Shown here in pieces: positions 2,296-62,212 of a stretch of DNA of 64,000 nucleotides. The translations under genes and the position numbers were made by a program. Position 1 is the stretch's first letter, and each line of letters starts with the position of its first letter. Origin of the DNA: Escherichia phage 172-1. The notes under the pieces were generated by a model, which worked only from the letters and a program-made list of their open reading frames with translations, searched no databases and had not been told where the DNA came from. The DNA lies in the sequence record NC_028903.1; one strand, given 5' to 3'.

Positions 2296-2532
2296 ATGAA
2301 CATTAGGCATCAATTCAATAAAGAGCACGCCGCCGCTTTGGCGGCTCTCAATCTTAACGGCAGTCTTGACGCAGCATTAGAGGCATTGAAAGAAAGACTC
2401 ATGACAGAGATAGTTCAAACTGAACCTCATGAGAATAAGAAACGCGAAGATTGTTATCAAAAGTATAAAATGGTGGGTAGCTTAAAAGAGGTCATAAAAG
2501 CTGCTATCAATAGTGCAGGAGATGTTTCATAA
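2296..2532 (+). CDS. hypothetical small protein
   Basis: 78-aa ORF between portal and scaffold genes, same strand, tight spacing. Confidence 0.4.
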   Translation: MNIRHQFNKEHAAALAALNLNGSLDAALEALKERLMTEIVQTEPHENKKREDCYQKYKMVGSLKEVIKAAINSAGDVS

Positions 2533-3617
2533 TGCCACAAGATAATTATATTGACCCGAACGATTTTAAATCTTTCCTCCAACTGGATGACCTGAAAGGC
2601 TCTTTTAAAGAAGAGCTTGGTCGATTAGAATCTGAACAAGAACCAGAAGTGGACATTGACGACGAGTTCCCGGAAGATACCGGTGACAACTTCGACTTTG
2701 ATACCGACCTTCTCGGTGAAAGCGATGAGCTTAAGTTCGAAGATGAAGATGGTTGGGAAGATCATGATGAGGAAGGCGAAGTCGAAGAAGATGGGGATGA
2801 CTCTGACGAAGGTGATGAAAACACTGAAGCAGAAGAGGAAGACTCAAGCGATGCAGGATATGAAGATGATTCTGCTGACGGTGATGGTGAAGTCTTTGAT
2901 GTAGACTACGAAACCGTTATCACCCTTCCTGATGGACGTGAGATGACTATTGAAGAACTCTCCAATGGCTATCTTACTGGTGCTGACATGACTGAACGAG
3001 AATCAACTCTTCAGCGTCACATGGAAGCATTTGAGGAACGTGTAGTAGGTTTGAAGGATGTATTAGAATTAGCGTCTTTAGAAGCAGACCGAGTAATTGA
3101 AGATTACAACGGATTTGATTGGGACAAGCTTGCAGTAGAAGATCCTCAAGCATATGTTGAAAACAAACGTTTCCTAGAGAAGTACACAGCTCGTCGTAAC
3201 CAGCTTGAACAGGCTCAGATGCGTGTTAAGCAGGAAGCAGCAGCTAAAGAACAGGAAGCTTTCCAAGCCAAAAGTGTTGAGTGCGTTAATATTCTGAAAC
3301 GTGAGATTCCAAATTGGGATGAAAACTTATATCAAAACTTAATGCAATATGCAATTGACTTAGGTGCTACTGAAGAAGAAGTATTGAAGGAAAACCGTCC
3401 GTCTATTTTCCTAGCTCTCCATAAAGCATACCAATTTGATAAAGGTAAGCAGCAGGTGATGGCTAAGATTAAACGTCCCGGTGCTCCACGCAAGGTTGTG
3501 AAGTCTGATGCTGCAAAGTCTCGTACTTCCAATAAGCCAGACAACGCTAAGGTTGCCAAGGCATTCGCAGAGGGTCGCGTTAGTCACGAAGACGCATTCA
3601 AATTCCTCGTAGATTAA
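2532..3617 (+). CDS. scaffolding protein (putative)
   Basis: 361 aa, extremely Asp/Glu-rich N-terminal half, helical C-terminus, located between portal and capsid. Confidence 0.55.
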   Translation: MPQDNYIDPNDFKSFLQLDDLKGSFKEELGRLESEQEPEVDIDDEFPEDTGDNFDFDTDLLGESDELKFEDEDGWEDHDEEGEVEEDGDDSDEGDENTEAEEEDSSDAGYEDDSADGDGEVFDVDYETVITLPDGREMTIEELSNGYLTGADMTERESTLQRHMEAFEERVVGLKDVLELASLEADRVIEDYNGFDWDKLAVEDPQAYVENKRFLEKYTARRNQLEQAQMRVKQEAAAKEQEAFQAKSVECVNILKREIPNWDENLYQNLMQYAIDLGATEEEVLKENRPSIFLALHKAYQFDKGKQQVMAKIKRPGAPRKVVKSDAAKSRTSNKPDNAKVAKAFAEGRVSHEDAFKFLVD

Positions 3618-3658
3618 TCGACAAATTAATTATTTAATAGTATAGGAGCTAACATAAC

Positions 3659-4720
3659 ATGGCTAATCCAACTTTATTTGTATCGTATGACCAGAATGGT
3701 AAAAAACTTTCTTTTGCTAACTGGATTTCTGTTCTGTCCCCTCAGGATACTCCGTTCGTATCTATGACCGGTAAAGAGTCTATCAACCAGACTATCTTTA
3801 GCTGGCAGACCGATGCACTGGCAAGCGTTGATGGTAATAACGCACACGTCGAAGGCTCTCGTGCTGAAGACGGCGAAATGAAACCGACTGTTATCAAGTC
3901 TAACGTTACTCAGATTCTGCGTAAGGTTGTTCGTGTTTCTGACACTGCTAACACCACCGCTAACTACGGTCGTGGTCGTGAACTGATGTATCAGCTGGAG
4001 AAGAAAGGTAAAGAGATCAAGCGTGACCTCGAGAAAATCCTTCTGTCCGGTCAGGCTCGTACCGACGTTCTGGCTGACCAGTATCTGACTAACTCCGCAG
4101 CTGATCCGACTCAGATTGGTAAGAACGACACCCATGCAGCTCGTAAGACTGGTGCATTCCAGTTCCTGTGTGCTCACGGCGGTCTGACTGGTGGCGTTGT
4201 TGACAAAACCAAGAATGGTCCTGCTGACCCAGATACCGGTGCTGTAACTGTTAAAGTTGCACAGAACACTTCTAACCCGGCTACTAACATCGGTTTTGAT
4301 GAAGCAGATATCTTTGATATGACTCTGCAACTTTACACCGCTGGTTCTGAAGCAGATATCATCATGATTAACCCGGCTCATGCTAAGATCTTCGCTGGTC
4401 TGCAAGAAAACACTCAGGGTTCACGTAAGCGTATCTTTGAGAACACCAAGCAGTTCATCTACGAAGTTAACAGCATCACTGACCCGCTGGGCCAGAGCTA
4501 CAAAATCATCGTTAACCGTTGGATGCCTACCGATGCAGTTTACTTCTTCCGTAGCGCTGACTGGACCCAGATGGTTCTGCGTGCTCCGAAACGTACCGAA
4601 CTGGCAAAAGATGGTTCTTACGAAAAATGGATGATTGAGATGGAAGTTGGTCTGCGTCACCGCAACCCGTATGCTTCCGGTGTTCTGTTCACTGCTGCGG
4701 GAAAGGCAGTGGCGGCGTAA
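3659..4720 (+). CDS. major capsid protein
   Basis: 353-aa ORF after scaffold gene with RBS aggag upstream; size and position typical of HK97-fold capsid; followed by Ig-domain frame. Confidence 0.65.
   Translation: MANPTLFVSYDQNGKKLSFANWISVLSPQDTPFVSMTGKESINQTIFSWQTDALASVDGNNAHVEGSRAEDGEMKPTVIKSNVTQILRKVVRVSDTANTTANYGRGRELMYQLEKKGKEIKRDLEKILLSGQARTDVLADQYLTNSAADPTQIGKNDTHAARKTGAFQFLCAHGGLTGGVVDKTKNGPADPDTGAVTVKVAQNTSNPATNIGFDEADIFDMTLQLYTAGSEADIIMINPAHAKIFAGLQENTQGSRKRIFENTKQFIYEVNSITDPLGQSYKIIVNRWMPTDAVYFFRSADWTQMVLRAPKRTELAKDGSYEKWMIEMEVGLRHRNPYASGVLFTAAGKAVAA
4699..4705 (+). other. putative -1 programmed ribosomal frameshift slippery heptamer G_GGA_AAG
   Basis: GGGAAAG in capsid 0-frame (codons gga aag), 13 nt before capsid stop; -1 frame open from 4639 to 5247. 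Confidence 0.5.
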
Positions 4721-5247
4721 CAGTAGATACCATAACTGTTAGTCCTTCGTCGGTTGCAAGCCTTCCGACGGGGGCTACTCAGCAGTTTACAGCTACAGCA
4801 CAAATGAGTGATAGCTCCACATCAACAACTGGATTTGTTTGGTCCGTTGAGGGTGGTGGGGCTATTTCTGTTTCTGGACTGTACACTGCACCGAGTGCGT
4901 CGCAAGAAACCCCGATCACAGTGAAAGCTACTAAAGGTGGTAAATCCGGTACATCTACAATCTCAGCTATTGCTGACCCTGAACCTACAATTGTAAGTCG
5001 TGGTCCTATTGCTGGTAAAGTCGGTGGTTCTACTACTGCCTTCTCTACAATGTTTACTGTAACCAATTCTGCTGGTAGTGATTATGATTTTGTTGTAACC
5101 CCTACTGAAGCAGGTGCTGTCAGTGCAGCTGGTCTTTTGACTCTTGCTGATGCTGCTACTGGTACAGTCTCTGTTGCAGCTACACACAAGACTAAACCTC
5201 TTGTAACAGCCACTTGTGAATTCACAGGTGTTACCCCCAAAGCCTAA
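4699..5247 (+). CDS. capsid C-terminal extension with Ig-like (Big_2) domains, predicted -1 frameshift product
   Basis: -1 frame after slip reads GKGSGGVTVDTITVSPSSVASLPTGATQQFTATA..., a Gly linker plus Big_2-type motif that starts upstream of the ATG at 4804 of the listed ORF 4804..5247; no SD before that ATG. Confidence 0.5.
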   Translation, partial: GKGSGGVTVDTITVSPSSVASLPTGATQQFTATAQMSDSSTSTTGFVWSVEGGGAISVSGLYTAPSASQETPITVKATKGGKSGTSTISAIADPEPTIVSRGPIAGKVGGSTTAFSTMFTVTNSAGSDYDFVVTPTEAGAVSAAGLLTLADAATGTVSVAATHKTKPLVTATCEFTGVTPKA

Positions 5248-5253
5248 AACTAA

Positions 5254-5282
5254 AGCTGCCTTCGGGTGGCTTTTCTTGTTTT
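5254..5282 (+). terminator. rho-independent terminator (UUCG tetraloop hairpin + T-run)
   Basis: agctgcc-ttcg-ggtggct followed by ttttcttgtttt. Confidence 0.6.
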
Positions 5283-5304
5283 AAGACCTATACAAGCTAG
5301 TGTG

Positions 5305-5313
5305 TAATGTATA
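5305..5313 (+). promoter_or_regulatory. TAATGTATA promoter-like motif
   Basis: exact 9-mer 33 nt upstream of ATG 5347; same 9-mer recurs at 22172, 31700 and in reverse at 31628. Confidence 0.35.
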
Positions 5314-5346
5314 TTCTTTGTCTACATATAACAAGGAGGACAACCT

Positions 5347-6099
5347 ATGGCGATGCCAGAAGTGCAAAACCCGATTAACACGTATGGCTGGCTTAAGAAA
5401 GCTGTTGCCTTGTGGGCCGATCGAGACGATGATGAATTTGTTAATCAAATTCCAAACTTTATTAACTTTGCAGAGAAAGAGATTTATCGTAACTTACGTA
5501 TCCCTCCTCTGGAAAAAGAAGTGTATTTAGATATTAAAGATGGAGTAGCTTACATTCCTCCTGATTACTTAGAAGCTCAGTGGATGATGAGAGCCAAAGA
5601 TGGTACAATCTTCCAAGTAACGTCTCCTGAAGAGATTAGCTATCGTAGACAGCATGGAACAATTAACCCATCTCATTGGAATAACCAACCTGTTAACTTT
5701 GCTCGTTTCGGTAGTCGTTTCATTTTCTATCCTAGCATCGAAGCAGATACTCCTGTTTATCCTGATGATGGAAGCCCTTTGATTCCAGCAGAAAACTCAG
5801 TAATTCTCAGTTATTATGCAGACCCACCGGAATTCCATGAAGATACAGACACTAGTGCTATCCTTACTATTGCACCAGAACTTCTTCTATATTTCACTCT
5901 ACGTCATGCTTGCTTGTTTGTTCAAGATGATAATGGAGTTCAGAAATGGTCTGCATTAGGAAAAGCTATCCTTGATGAAATGGTAGAGCAGAATAAGAAA
6001 CAAGAGTACTCAGGTTCACCTATCGCAATTCCGAATAACATGACTCGGCTTCAGAGCAGCTTGCCTGACATTTATGGTATTCGTACTTCTCGTGTATAA
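5347..6099 (+). CDS. virion structural protein (adaptor or tail tubular candidate)
   Basis: 250-aa ORF with strong RBS aaggagga, positioned between capsid and tail fiber genes. Confidence 0.4.
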   Translation: MAMPEVQNPINTYGWLKKAVALWADRDDDEFVNQIPNFINFAEKEIYRNLRIPPLEKEVYLDIKDGVAYIPPDYLEAQWMMRAKDGTIFQVTSPEEISYRRQHGTINPSHWNNQPVNFARFGSRFIFYPSIEADTPVYPDDGSPLIPAENSVILSYYADPPEFHEDTDTSAILTIAPELLLYFTLRHACLFVQDDNGVQKWSALGKAILDEMVEQNKKQEYSGSPIAIPNNMTRLQSSLPDIYGIRTSRV

Positions 6100-62135: not shown

Positions 62136-62212
62136 TGGCGCACCGTGGAGGATTCTAACCTCCAACCAATTTCTTAGAAGGAAACTGCTCTATACAATTG
62201 AGCTAACGGCGC
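62136..62212 (-). tRNA. tRNA-Arg (anticodon UCU)
   Basis: hand-folded cloverleaf: acceptor GCGCCGU/ACGGUGC, D stem GCUC/GAGC, anticodon stem GUUUC/GAAAU with loop CUUCUAA, T stem GGAGG/CCUCC with loop UUAGAAU, discriminator G and encoded CCA. Confidence 0.65.

What the first reader, a model, noticed from the sequence alone, without database searches (positions are those of the whole stretch)
4639..5247. Predicted -1 programmed frameshift at GGGAAAG fusing the major capsid protein to Ig-like (Big_2) domains
The capsid ORF stops at 4718-4720. Thirteen nt earlier the 0-frame contains G_GGA_AAG (4699-4705), the X_XXY_YYZ pattern and, as I recall, the same heptamer as the lambda G/GT shift site. 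The -1 frame is open from 4639 through 5247 and after the slip would read GKGSGGV (Gly linker) then TVDTITVSPSSVASLPTGATQQFTATA..., a Big_2-type Ig-like motif that begins before the ATG at 4804 of the listed ORF 4804..5247; that ATG has no SD. A stem-loop (cgtcgg...ccgacg, about 4749-4770) lies downstream. This parallels the T7 10A/10B arrangement and the known habit of phages adding Ig-like decoration domains by frameshifting.
Basis: partly seen in the sequence, partly recalled or inferred. Interest (0 to 1): 0.75.

Follow-up and report, generated by a model that had tools for sequence, protein, structure and literature searches.

The report
Known capsid frameshift adding Ig domains
A small share of ribosomes translating this coliphage's major capsid gene very probably slip back one base at GGGAAAG and add two Ig-like domains to the capsid protein; the prediction holds up, but the same frameshift is already published and annotated for this phage genus.

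Summary
The window is a Kuravirus, 99.8% identical to Escherichia phage NJ01.
- The capsid (MCP) ORF is 3659-4720.
- G_GGA_AAG lies in the X_XXY_YYZ phase at 4699-4705.
- The -1 frame is open 4639-5247 and has no ATG, GTG or TTG before ATG 4804.
- ATG 4804 has no Shine-Dalgarno sequence.
- A real stem-loop lies at 4748-4770.

The frameshift reading is strongly supported:
- The heptamer sits at the same codon in 29 of 29 Kuravirus loci.
- It uses the gene's only GGA codon.
- Positions 4721-4803, upstream of any start codon, evolve as coding sequence in the -1 frame (p = 4e-5).
- The Big_2 domain and three predicted β-strands begin before ATG 4804.
- Related phages encode the same capsid-Ig architecture as single in-frame ORFs.

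It is not new. The frameshift is reported for phiEco32, SU10, Privateer and YF01. GenBank records for Paul and YF01 annotate the joined CDS at GGGAAAG. Only the NJ01-type records lack it.

Two leads remain. A covarying hairpin (4732-4790) starts 26 nt downstream, too far for a classical stimulator. Sister lineages use a non-canonical G_GUA_AAG site.

Interest is low (0.2).

The parts
3644..3648 (+). Shine-Dalgarno sequence (AGGAG) of the capsid gene
   Evidence: Read directly from the sequence; ATG 4804 has nothing comparable.
3659..4720 (+). Major capsid protein ORF in the 0 frame, 353 aa, 38.8 kDa, stop TAA 4718-4720
   Evidence: ORF list and translation. Pfam SU10_MCP E 9e-77. About 98% identical to the solved SU10 capsid protein 7z45 over residues 1-351. 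Mass.
4699..4705 (+). Slippery heptamer G_GGA_AAG, the proposed -1 tandem-slippage site
   Evidence: In phase. Invariant in 29 of 29 Kuravirus loci. Uses the only GGA codon of the gene. Same heptamer as lambda G/GT. Annotated as the frameshift site in phage Paul.
4706..4720 (+). 0-frame tail (AVAA plus stop) that overlaps the -1-frame Gly/Ser linker
   Evidence: Alignment A3: 3-nt indels occur here, the 0-frame tail varies (AVAA, VAA, AAA, AGA), and the -1 frame always encodes G/S residues.
4705..5247 (+). -1-frame extension read after the slip: GSGG linker plus two Ig-like domains, stop TAA 5245-5247. The predicted fusion is 529 aa, 56.0 kDa.
   Evidence: Translation and fusion mass. The annotated YF01 fusion protein P0001 is 87% identical and covers 100% of the predicted fusion.
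4723..4962 (+). Ig-like domain 1 (Big_2), which begins 27 codons upstream of the annotated ATG
   Evidence: Pfam Big_2 at 25.3 bits, above the 22.8 cut-off, residues 8-80. AlphaFold β-sandwich at residues 8-87, pLDDT above 95. Foldseek matches LigA Big_2 at E 8e-11 and the phi29 capsid protein. Sequence match to the phi29 gp8 C-terminal region.
4804..4806 (+). ATG used as the start of the separately annotated 'Ig-like domain protein' (NJ01_022); probably just internal Met35 of the extension
   Evidence: No Shine-Dalgarno sequence. Not conserved as a start across relatives. It would remove three β-strands and the Pfam hit is lost. GenBank annotation seen.
4987..5235 (+). Ig-like domain 2, with no Pfam family
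   Evidence: AlphaFold β-sandwich at residues 96-178. No Pfam hit at E <= 0.1. 67% identical to a module fused in frame to a capsid protein in P0020.
4732..4790 (+). Conserved extended RNA hairpin inside the extension's coding sequence (core stem 4744-4753 with 4765-4774); role unknown
   Evidence: -24.6 kcal/mol, z -4.5. 20 pairs, 98.5% of cells paired in 20 distinct sequences. One pair is GC:8, UA:8, AU:4 and is never broken. No Rfam match.
5252..5283 (+). Terminator-like hairpin plus T-run just after the extension's stop codon, closing the capsid transcription unit
   Evidence: Pattern scan. The homologous site is annotated as a terminator in SU10 and Paul. In relatives without an extension, similar GC-rich hairpins with T-runs (judged by eye) follow the capsid stop directly.

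Best explanation
This is a programmed -1 ribosomal frameshift at the end of the Kuravirus major capsid gene.

1. The capsid gene and the downstream Ig-coding sequence form one transcription unit. It ends at the hairpin plus T-run at 5252-5283. This is inferred from the sequence and from annotations in relatives.
2. Most ribosomes read 3659-4717 and stop at TAA 4718. They make the 353-aa, 38.8-kDa capsid protein. This is shown by the ORF, its homology and the solved SU10 structure.
3. A minority slip back one base when GGA and AAG occupy the P and A sites at 4699-4705. The Gly and Lys tRNAs re-pair with GGG and AAA. This is inferred from sequence, conservation and precedent.
4. Those ribosomes then read GGC AGT GGC GGC GTA and onward to TAA 5245. 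The product is a 529-aa, 56.0-kDa protein: capsid residues 1-349, a GSGG linker, a Big_2 Ig-like domain and a second Ig-like domain. The architecture is shown by Pfam, the AlphaFold model and in-frame homologues.
5. The long form co-assembles into the prolate head through its capsid moiety and displays the Ig-like domains on the outside. This is inferred by analogy with T3, with phi29 gp8, and with the virion proteomics reported for phiEco32 and Privateer.
6. The efficiency was not measured. If it resembles the roughly 3.5% quoted for the same heptamer in lambda G/GT, a head of 715 subunits would carry about 25 long subunits. That would be invisible in symmetrised cryo-EM maps.
7. The Ig-like domains probably give weak adhesion to surface carbohydrates. 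This is speculation from the literature on phage Ig-like domains.
For: - **Slip site.** The heptamer is in phase and conserved in 29 of 29 Kuravirus loci with 21 distinct junction sequences.
- **Extension kept.** It is open for 178-545 aa in 28 of 29 loci.
- **Avoided codons.** GGA is used once in 26 Gly codons, at the site. GCG is used 3 times in 36 Ala codons, only at or next to the site.
- **Coding signature.** Third-position excess in the -1 frame across 4721-4803, with no start codon upstream (20 of 28 against 13 of 55, p = 4e-5).
- **Linker.** The Gly/Ser linker is kept in the -1 frame across indels.
- **Domain boundary.** Big_2 and three β-strands begin upstream of ATG 4804.
- **Start codon.** ATG 4804 has no Shine-Dalgarno sequence, and no start codon is conserved in the -1 frame.
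- **In-frame equivalents.** P0060 aligns across the junction, P0020 carries the second domain, and 7-11 gp009 and the second capsid gene of ECO319P1 are capsid+Big_2 fusions.
- **Independent lineages.** Related phages attach Ig-like domains at the same capsid C-terminus through other slip sites.
- **Transcription unit.** No terminator-like site separates the capsid stop from the extension, and one follows the extension.
- **Literature.**
  - SU10 paper: GGGAAAG slippage 'as in phiEco32', with 38.5 and 55.4 kDa forms (PMC4281155).
  - YF01 paper: two forms in 'YF01 and other group phages' (PMC9965538).
  - GenBank joined CDS in Paul and YF01, citing PMID 18294652.
  - G_GGA_AAG is described as highly shift-prone in E. 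coli (PMC5009743).
Against: - There is no protein-level evidence for this phage or for NJ01.
- No RNA structure lies at the canonical 5-9 nt spacing, and no Shine-Dalgarno-like element lies upstream of the site. The efficiency may therefore be low.
- The SU10 cryo-EM study saw no extra capsid density and no longer band. However, the deposited SU10 sequence has a 1-nt insertion that closes the -1 frame after 11 codons, so SU10 is not a fair test.
- The primary phiEco32 paper (Savalia 2008) could not be read here. Its result is known only through citations.
Confidence: 0.9

Rival explanations
1. The Ig-like protein is made separately. It starts at ATG 4804, as annotated in NJ01, XT18 and PE006, and acts as a detachable 147-aa decoration protein.
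For: Several GenBank records annotate it this way. The SU10 cryo-EM authors treat gp10 as a separate putative minor capsid protein. Gene callers in metagenomes also start at this Met; many hits cover 81% of the extension.
Against: There is no Shine-Dalgarno sequence. The start is not conserved: the first candidate start lies at +105, +30 or +54 from the heptamer, or only upstream of it inside the capsid ORF, depending on the phage. The 33 codons upstream evolve as coding sequence in this frame. The product would lack three β-strands of domain 1, and the Pfam hit disappears.
Confidence: 0.04
2. The extension is an unexpressed or decaying remnant of an ancestral in-frame fusion, and the heptamer is incidental.
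For: The deposited SU10 sequence has lost the -1 reading frame, and no long form was seen in its capsid. In-frame fusions do exist in relatives.
Against: The frame is intact in 28 of 29 loci. Third-position variation dominates. The AlphaFold model is very confident, and the extension has expanded modularly to 264-545 aa in relatives. The heptamer is invariant and built from avoided codons.
Confidence: 0.03
3. The fusion arises by another recoding route: transcriptional slippage at GGGAAAG, or termination at TAA 4718 followed by reinitiation in the -1 frame.
For: The 0-frame stop lies only 12 nt after the heptamer, so terminating ribosomes are close by.
Against: Runs of three G and three A are far shorter than the homopolymer runs known to cause RNA polymerase slippage (general knowledge). 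No ATG, GTG or TTG exists in the -1 frame between 4639 and 4804 for reinitiation. Reinitiation would also give a separate protein rather than a fusion.
Confidence: 0.02

Closest known systems
Capsid-gene -1 frameshift of phiEco32-like phages (Kuravirus: phiEco32, Paul, YF01; reported also for SU10)
   Same: The heptamer GGGAAAG sits at the homologous codon and the capsid family (SU10_MCP) is the same. The linker plus Big_2 begins right after the slip. The YF01 fusion protein is 87% identical over 100% of the predicted product.
   Different: The extension here is the short 180-aa two-domain type, against 543-545 aa in YF01 and Paul. The NJ01-type database records do not annotate the frameshift, and the NJ01 record omits the capsid CDS altogether.
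Proteus phage Privateer capsid frameshift (Grimontviridae)
   Same: It uses GGGAAAG at the end of a homologous capsid gene. The longer form was detected in virions by mass spectrometry. The extension in close relatives is Ig-like, I-set plus Big_2.
   Different: In Privateer-like loci the heptamer directly abuts the stop codon (GGGAAAG TAA). The first Ig domain belongs to a different family, I-set. Capsid identity to the window is only about 57%.
T3 and T7 gene 10A/10B capsid frameshift
   Same: A -1 frameshift near the end of the major capsid gene yields a minor, longer capsid subunit. In T3 the extension is Ig-like (review PMC5009743).
   Different: The capsid family and the slip sequence differ (slip sequence from my own knowledge). 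The T7 extension is not Ig-like. No sequence homology to T3 or T7 was found or tested here.
Lambda G/GT tail assembly chaperone frameshift
   Same: The slippery heptamer GGGAAAG is identical (PMC3296357). As far as I recall, lambda also has no tightly spaced stimulatory structure.
   Different: The gene and its function differ: a tail chaperone, not a capsid protein. The frameshift product there is an assembly factor, not a surface decoration.
phi29 gp8 capsid protein with an in-frame C-terminal Big_2 domain; Salmonella phage 7-11 gp009
   Same: A capsid protein carries a C-terminal Big_2 Ig-like domain.
   Different: These are made by ordinary in-frame translation. Phage 7-11 also keeps a second, short capsid paralogue instead of using a frameshift.

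Membership tests
Programmed -1 ribosomal frameshift (tandem slippage, X_XXY_YYZ) | Slippery heptamer in the X_XXY_YYZ phase of the upstream ORF | tested here: met
   G_GGA_AAG at 4699-4705 in the capsid frame.
Programmed -1 ribosomal frameshift (tandem slippage, X_XXY_YYZ) | A -1 ORF that overlaps the site, lacks its own initiation signals and encodes a real protein | tested here: met
   The -1 frame is open 4639-5247 with no start codon before 4804 and no Shine-Dalgarno sequence. It encodes Big_2 and a high-confidence two-domain fold. It carries a codon-position signature upstream of the ATG.
Programmed -1 ribosomal frameshift (tandem slippage, X_XXY_YYZ) | Heptamer conserved among relatives beyond what the protein sequence requires | tested here: met
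   Present in 29 of 29 loci. It uses the only GGA codon and rare GCG codons.
Programmed -1 ribosomal frameshift (tandem slippage, X_XXY_YYZ) | Stimulatory element: a structure 5-9 nt downstream or a Shine-Dalgarno-like sequence upstream | tested here: inconclusive
   Nothing lies at the canonical spacing, and there is no upstream Shine-Dalgarno-like motif. A covarying hairpin begins 26 nt downstream. A hairpin that encloses the site (4689-4712) has no covariation support. A stimulator is not obligatory for this heptamer in E. coli.
Programmed -1 ribosomal frameshift (tandem slippage, X_XXY_YYZ) | Two protein products with a shared N-terminus are observed | not testable with these tools
   Reported for relatives only: phiEco32 and SU10 through citations, and Privateer by mass spectrometry. 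The claim for SU10 is contested.
Kuravirus capsid-Ig frameshift (phiEco32, Paul, YF01) | Same heptamer at the homologous capsid codon, and a fusion product homologous to the annotated one | tested here: met
   Alignment A3. Joined CDS in Paul and YF01. P0001 is 87% identical with 100% coverage.
Pfam Big_2 (PF02368) / Ig-like fold | Score above the Pfam gathering threshold, and a β-sandwich fold | tested here: met
   25.3 bits against 22.8. AlphaFold pLDDT 95.8. Foldseek match to LigA Big_2 at E 8e-11. The second domain has an Ig-like fold but no Pfam match.
SU10-type HK97-fold major capsid protein | Pfam SU10_MCP match and similarity to the solved capsid protein | tested here: met
   E 9e-77. 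7z45 matches at E 1.6e-230 over residues 1-351.
T7/T3 gene 10A/10B system | Homologous capsid gene and slip site | not tested
   The resemblance is in mechanism only. No T7-like capsid family appeared in the Pfam results. The comparison with T3 and T7 rests on the review.

The most novel reading that the evidence does not exclude
The most novel reading not excluded concerns the long hairpin at 4732-4790. It is conserved, and its base pairs change in a compensating way. One pair appears as G-C, U-A or A-U and is never broken in 20 distinct sequences. On the 5' side the change is a synonymous Ser third position. On the 3' side it is the second position of a variable P/E/Q/L codon.

The hairpin may be a functional RNA element that tunes the frameshift, or the fate of the sparsely translated downstream mRNA, from 26-34 nt away. 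That is well outside the canonical 5-9 nt spacing.

Related to this, sister lineages reach the same capsid-Ig fusion through a non-canonical G_GUA_AAG site, backed by a GC-rich hairpin at the canonical 6-nt spacing. That pairing would suggest a trade-off between slip-site quality and stimulator strength within one capsid family.
Probability: 0.25. Interest if true: 0.45.

Novelty: already known. Interest (0 to 1): 0.2.

Why it matters
**What is gained.** The result corrects annotation. NJ01-type records, including RefSeq, list a truncated 147-aa 'Ig domain protein', and the NJ01 record omits the capsid CDS. The gene should be a joined capsid CDS with ribosomal slippage at GGGAAAG.

**What is reinforced.** Phages place Ig-like modules on capsid proteins either in frame or out of frame. 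The C-terminus of SU10-type capsid proteins looks like a recurrent docking point. At least three different slip sequences with Ig-like extensions, and several in-frame fusions, were seen here.

**Practical value.** The long form is a natural display scaffold on a therapeutic-phage genus. It may also influence adhesion to host surfaces or mucus.

None of this changes current understanding, because the frameshift itself is published for the genus.

Tried and rejected
- **Primary papers not available.** The phiEco32 paper (Savalia 2008) and the NJ01 genome announcement are not in the library. The phiEco32 result is cited second-hand.
- **A 23-38 nt invariant stretch upstream of the site (around 4641-4678).** I considered it as a possible upstream RNA element. 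I rejected this because the same 23-mer is identical in capsid genes that are only about 55% identical in protein, such as 7-11 and L032. The stretch encodes an invariant peptide in what I judge to be preferred codons, so strong codon bias is the simpler explanation.
- **Hairpin enclosing the slip site (4689-4712; proposed for SU10 by Mirzaei 2014).** It is stable in this window (-11.1 kcal/mol, z -3.3). Across relatives its pairs are mostly gaps, mismatches or one-sided changes. It would also be melted by a ribosome sitting on the site. It is not supported as a stimulator.
- **Small hairpin AACAGT/ACTGTT (4719-4740).** It is invariant, so uninformative, and weak at -5.1 kcal/mol. It encodes a repeated Thr-Val motif and competes with the extended hairpin.
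- **Rfam scan of 4500-5400 at E <= 1.** No match.
- **Other GGGAAAG sites in the window (47219, 50614).** Neither lies in a long ORF on the + strand.
- **Promoter scan.** No promoter-like site on the + strand between the capsid stop and ATG 4804.
Full report
**Identity of the window.** The region 3600-5350 is 99.8% identical to Escherichia phage NJ01 (Kuravirus, Gordonclarkvirinae), with 3 substitutions. It is 87-99% identical to about 95 other Kuravirus genomes. The local gene order is portal (43-2286), a small ORF, scaffold (2532-3617), capsid (3659-4720), the Ig-coding stretch, and adaptor (5347-6099).

**Check of the observation.**
- The capsid ORF is 3659-4720, 353 aa. It matches Pfam SU10_MCP at E 9e-77. 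It is about 98% identical to the solved SU10 capsid protein 7z45.
- GGGAAAG occupies 4699-4705. GGA (4700-4702) and AAG (4703-4705) are capsid codons, so the phase is X_XXY_YYZ.
- The -1 frame is open 4639-5247. After the slip it reads GKGSGGVTVDTITVSPSSVASLPTGATQQFTATA.
- The first ATG, GTG or TTG in that frame is ATG 4804. It has no Shine-Dalgarno sequence, unlike the capsid start (AGGAG) and the next gene (AAGGAGG).
- The stem-loop cgtcgg/ccgacg exists at 4748-4753 and 4765-4770.

**Chance.** In-frame X_XXA_AAG heptamers occur 6 times in 16,588 codons of the window's long ORFs. This one is the only classical heptamer in the capsid gene and lies in its last 7 codons. Only 3 of 45 long ORFs have a -1 frame that stays open 175 codons or more past their stop.

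**Evidence that the -1 frame is translated from the heptamer.**
1. *Conservation.* I collected 29 Kuravirus-type loci with 21 distinct junction sequences. They came from GenBank phages, IMG/VR, and a metagenome scan anchored on a capsid 23-mer that did not require the heptamer. All 29 have G_GGA_AAG at the same codon. The -1 frame continues for 178-545 aa in 28 of them.
2. *Codon choice.* GGA is used once among 26 Gly codons of the gene, at the slip site. GCG is used 3 times among 36 Ala codons, at 4697, 4712 and 4715 only. The site is built from codons the gene otherwise avoids.
3. *Coding signature.* Between the capsid stop and the annotated ATG (4721-4803), variable alignment columns number 7 of 27, 6 of 28 and 20 of 28 at -1-frame codon positions 1, 2 and 3. 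Fisher p = 4e-5. This stretch has no upstream start codon in that frame.
4. *Linker.* Three-base indels occur between the heptamer and the stop. The -1 frame always encodes a Gly/Ser linker (GGG, GSGG, GGS, GGSG), while the 0-frame tail varies.
5. *No conserved start.* The first possible start in the -1 frame lies at +105 (ATG), +30 (GTG), +54 (GTG), or only upstream of the heptamer inside the capsid ORF, depending on the phage.
6. *Domain boundaries.*
   - Pfam Big_2 (25.3 bits against a cut-off of 22.8) covers residues 8-80 of the -1 product. It therefore starts near nt 4723.
   - The ATG-initiated 147-aa protein has no Pfam hit.
   - An AlphaFold model of the 181-aa extension has pLDDT 95.8 and shows two β-sandwiches, residues 8-87 and 96-178. 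Strands 8-14, 26-28 and 30-35 lie at or before Met35, which is ATG 4804.
   - Foldseek finds Leptospira LigA tandem Big_2 domains (E 8e-11), the phi29 capsid protein and the Ig-like domains of the SU10 nozzle protein.
7. *In-frame equivalents.*
   - The 490-aa single-ORF protein P0060 aligns without a break from the capsid C-terminus (RHRNPFASGVL) through a short linker into Big_2.
   - P0020 fuses a capsid protein in frame to a module 67% identical to the window's second domain.
   - Salmonella phage 7-11 has a short capsid gene plus a 585-aa capsid+Big_2 paralogue.
   - ECO319P1 has a similar capsid+Big_2 paralogue of 361 aa.
8. *Transcription unit.* No terminator-like site lies between the capsid stop and the extension. 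A hairpin plus T-run follows the extension at 5252-5283. In relatives without an extension, similar GC-rich hairpins with T-runs (judged by eye) follow the capsid stop directly.

**Wider family.** Other lineages with SU10-type capsid proteins attach Ig-like domains at the same C-terminus through other -1 sites.

| Lineage | Slip site | Extension | Source |
|---|---|---|---|
| Privateer-like phages | G_GGA_AAG directly abutting TAA | I-set + Big_2, 168 aa after the stop | |
| Uncultured 82-90 kb lineage (L008-L010, L052-L061) | Non-canonical G_GUA_AAG, with a GC hairpin 6 nt downstream | Two Big_2 domains | |
| Aeromonas phage LAh_8 | G_GUA_AAG | I-set | |
| Phage PJNS034 | C_CCA_AAA, with a strong hairpin (-18.4 kcal/mol, z -4.6) | Ig_3 / I-set | |

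In each case the Ig-like domain starts 1-9 residues after the slip. The mixture of Ig families, and of in-frame and out-of-frame solutions, matches the published view. On that view Ig-like modules move by recombination and are rescued by frameshifting when they land out of frame (PMC5009743).

**Mechanism.** The most likely mechanism is tandem -1 slippage of the Gly and Lys tRNAs on G_GGA_AAG, then decoding of GGC AGT GGC GGC GTA. The product is a 529-aa, 56.0-kDa fusion, alongside the 38.8-kDa capsid protein.
- The heptamer is the one used by lambda G/GT. A published review describes it as highly shift-prone in E. coli.
- The efficiency is unknown. If it is near the roughly 3.5% quoted for lambda, a capsid of 715 subunits (SU10) would hold about 25 long subunits. 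This figure is an inference.
- No structure sits at the canonical 5-9 nt spacing, and no Shine-Dalgarno-like motif lies upstream.

**The stem-loop.**
- It is the core of an extended hairpin, 4734-4787 in the single-sequence fold and 4732-4790 in the alignment consensus. It folds at -24.6 kcal/mol, z -4.5, and 0 of 200 shuffles fold as well.
- Across 20 distinct sequences, 98.5% of cells in its 20 pairs are paired. Three pairs show changes on both sides.
- One pair is GC:8, UA:8, AU:4 and never broken. Its left partner is a synonymous Ser third position. Its right partner is the second position of a variable P/E/Q/L codon.
- The sequences are related, so these represent perhaps 2-4 independent events.
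- The hairpin starts 26-34 nt after the heptamer, so its role is open. It could be a distal stimulator, or it could protect the sparsely translated downstream mRNA.

**What is already known.**
- The SU10 genome paper describes GGGAAAG slippage that fuses the major head protein to the Ig-like domain 'as in phage phiEco32'. It reports 38.5 and 55.4 kDa forms, and it names NJ01 among the closest relatives (PMC4281155).
- The Privateer paper reports the same signal, a longer capsid protein in virions, and conservation among phiEco32-like phages (PMC7881722).
- The YF01 paper states that the capsid protein of YF01 and other group phages is made in two forms through GGGAAAG (PMC9965538).
- GenBank records for Paul and YF01 carry the joined CDS.

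SU10 is the exception. Its deposited sequence has a 1-nt insertion that closes the -1 frame after 11 codons. Its cryo-EM map shows no extra density.

**Verdict.** The feature is already known for the genus. What is missing is only the annotation in NJ01-type records, which list a truncated Ig protein; the NJ01 record also omits the capsid CDS. Interest is 0.2. The residual leads are the covarying distal hairpin and the G_GUA_AAG lineages.

Noticed in passing
window 3659-4720; L014 (JX867715 13490-15840): The NJ01 GenBank record has no CDS for the major capsid protein. Locus tags jump from NJ01_020 to NJ01_022, although the ORF is intact. The RefSeq copy also lists no head protein under the match.
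   Followed up: partly
L002 (SU10 KM044272) about 1630-1640; alignment A3 column 65: The deposited SU10 sequence has a unique 1-nt insertion 16-20 nt after the capsid stop. It closes the -1 frame after 11 codons and puts the Ig ORF in the capsid frame behind TAA. This may be a sequencing error or a real loss. It would reconcile the conflicting mass-spectrometry (2014) and cryo-EM (2022) reports.
   Followed up: partly
L008-L010 about 3912-3950; L052-L061; L011 (Aeromonas phage LAh_8) 3912-3918: Sister lineages have a non-canonical G_GUA_AAG at the capsid C-terminus, followed by a -1 ORF of 88-169 aa past the stop that encodes Big_2 or I-set domains. In the L008 type, a GC hairpin (GCGCCCCUACGGGCGU, with a C-G to U-G change between relatives) starts 6 nt downstream.
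   Followed up: partly
L031 (Escherichia phage PJNS034) 3385-3440: C_CCA_AAA lies at the end of a capsid gene about 42% identical to the window's. It is followed by a -1 Ig-like extension (130 aa past the stop) that is annotated as a separate hypothetical protein. A strong hairpin (-18.4 kcal/mol, z -4.6) starts 15-20 nt downstream.
   Followed up: partly
L029 (Salmonella phage 7-11) 1482-4258; L030 (ECO319P1) 2492-4596: These phages carry two capsid paralogues in tandem. The second is fused in frame to Big_2-type sequence (585 and 361 aa). In 7-11 a terminator is annotated after the first copy. This is an alternative to frameshifting for making a minor decorated capsid subunit.
   Followed up: partly
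window 4987-5235: The second domain of the extension has no Pfam family (E <= 0.1) but is confidently predicted as an Ig-like β-sandwich. It recurs at 67% identity fused in frame to a capsid protein only about 46% identical to the window's (P0020). It looks like a mobile module.
   Followed up: partly
Kuravirus loci L025, L026, L036, L038, L039, L041, L043, L044, L046, L047, L049: The length of the frameshift extension varies widely within the genus: 178-180, 264, 271, 372, at least 403, 437, 443, 457 and 543-545 aa. The heptamer, the linker and the first Big_2 domain stay the same.
   Followed up: no
window 4654-4676 (CTGCGTCACCGCAACCCGTATGC): This 23-nt stretch of the capsid gene is identical in phages whose capsid proteins are only about 55% identical, such as 7-11 and L032. 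An invariant peptide (LRHRNPYA) written in preferred codons is the most likely explanation, not an RNA element.
   Followed up: partly
window 62136-62212 (-): A single tRNA-Arg (anticodon TCT) gene.
   Followed up: no
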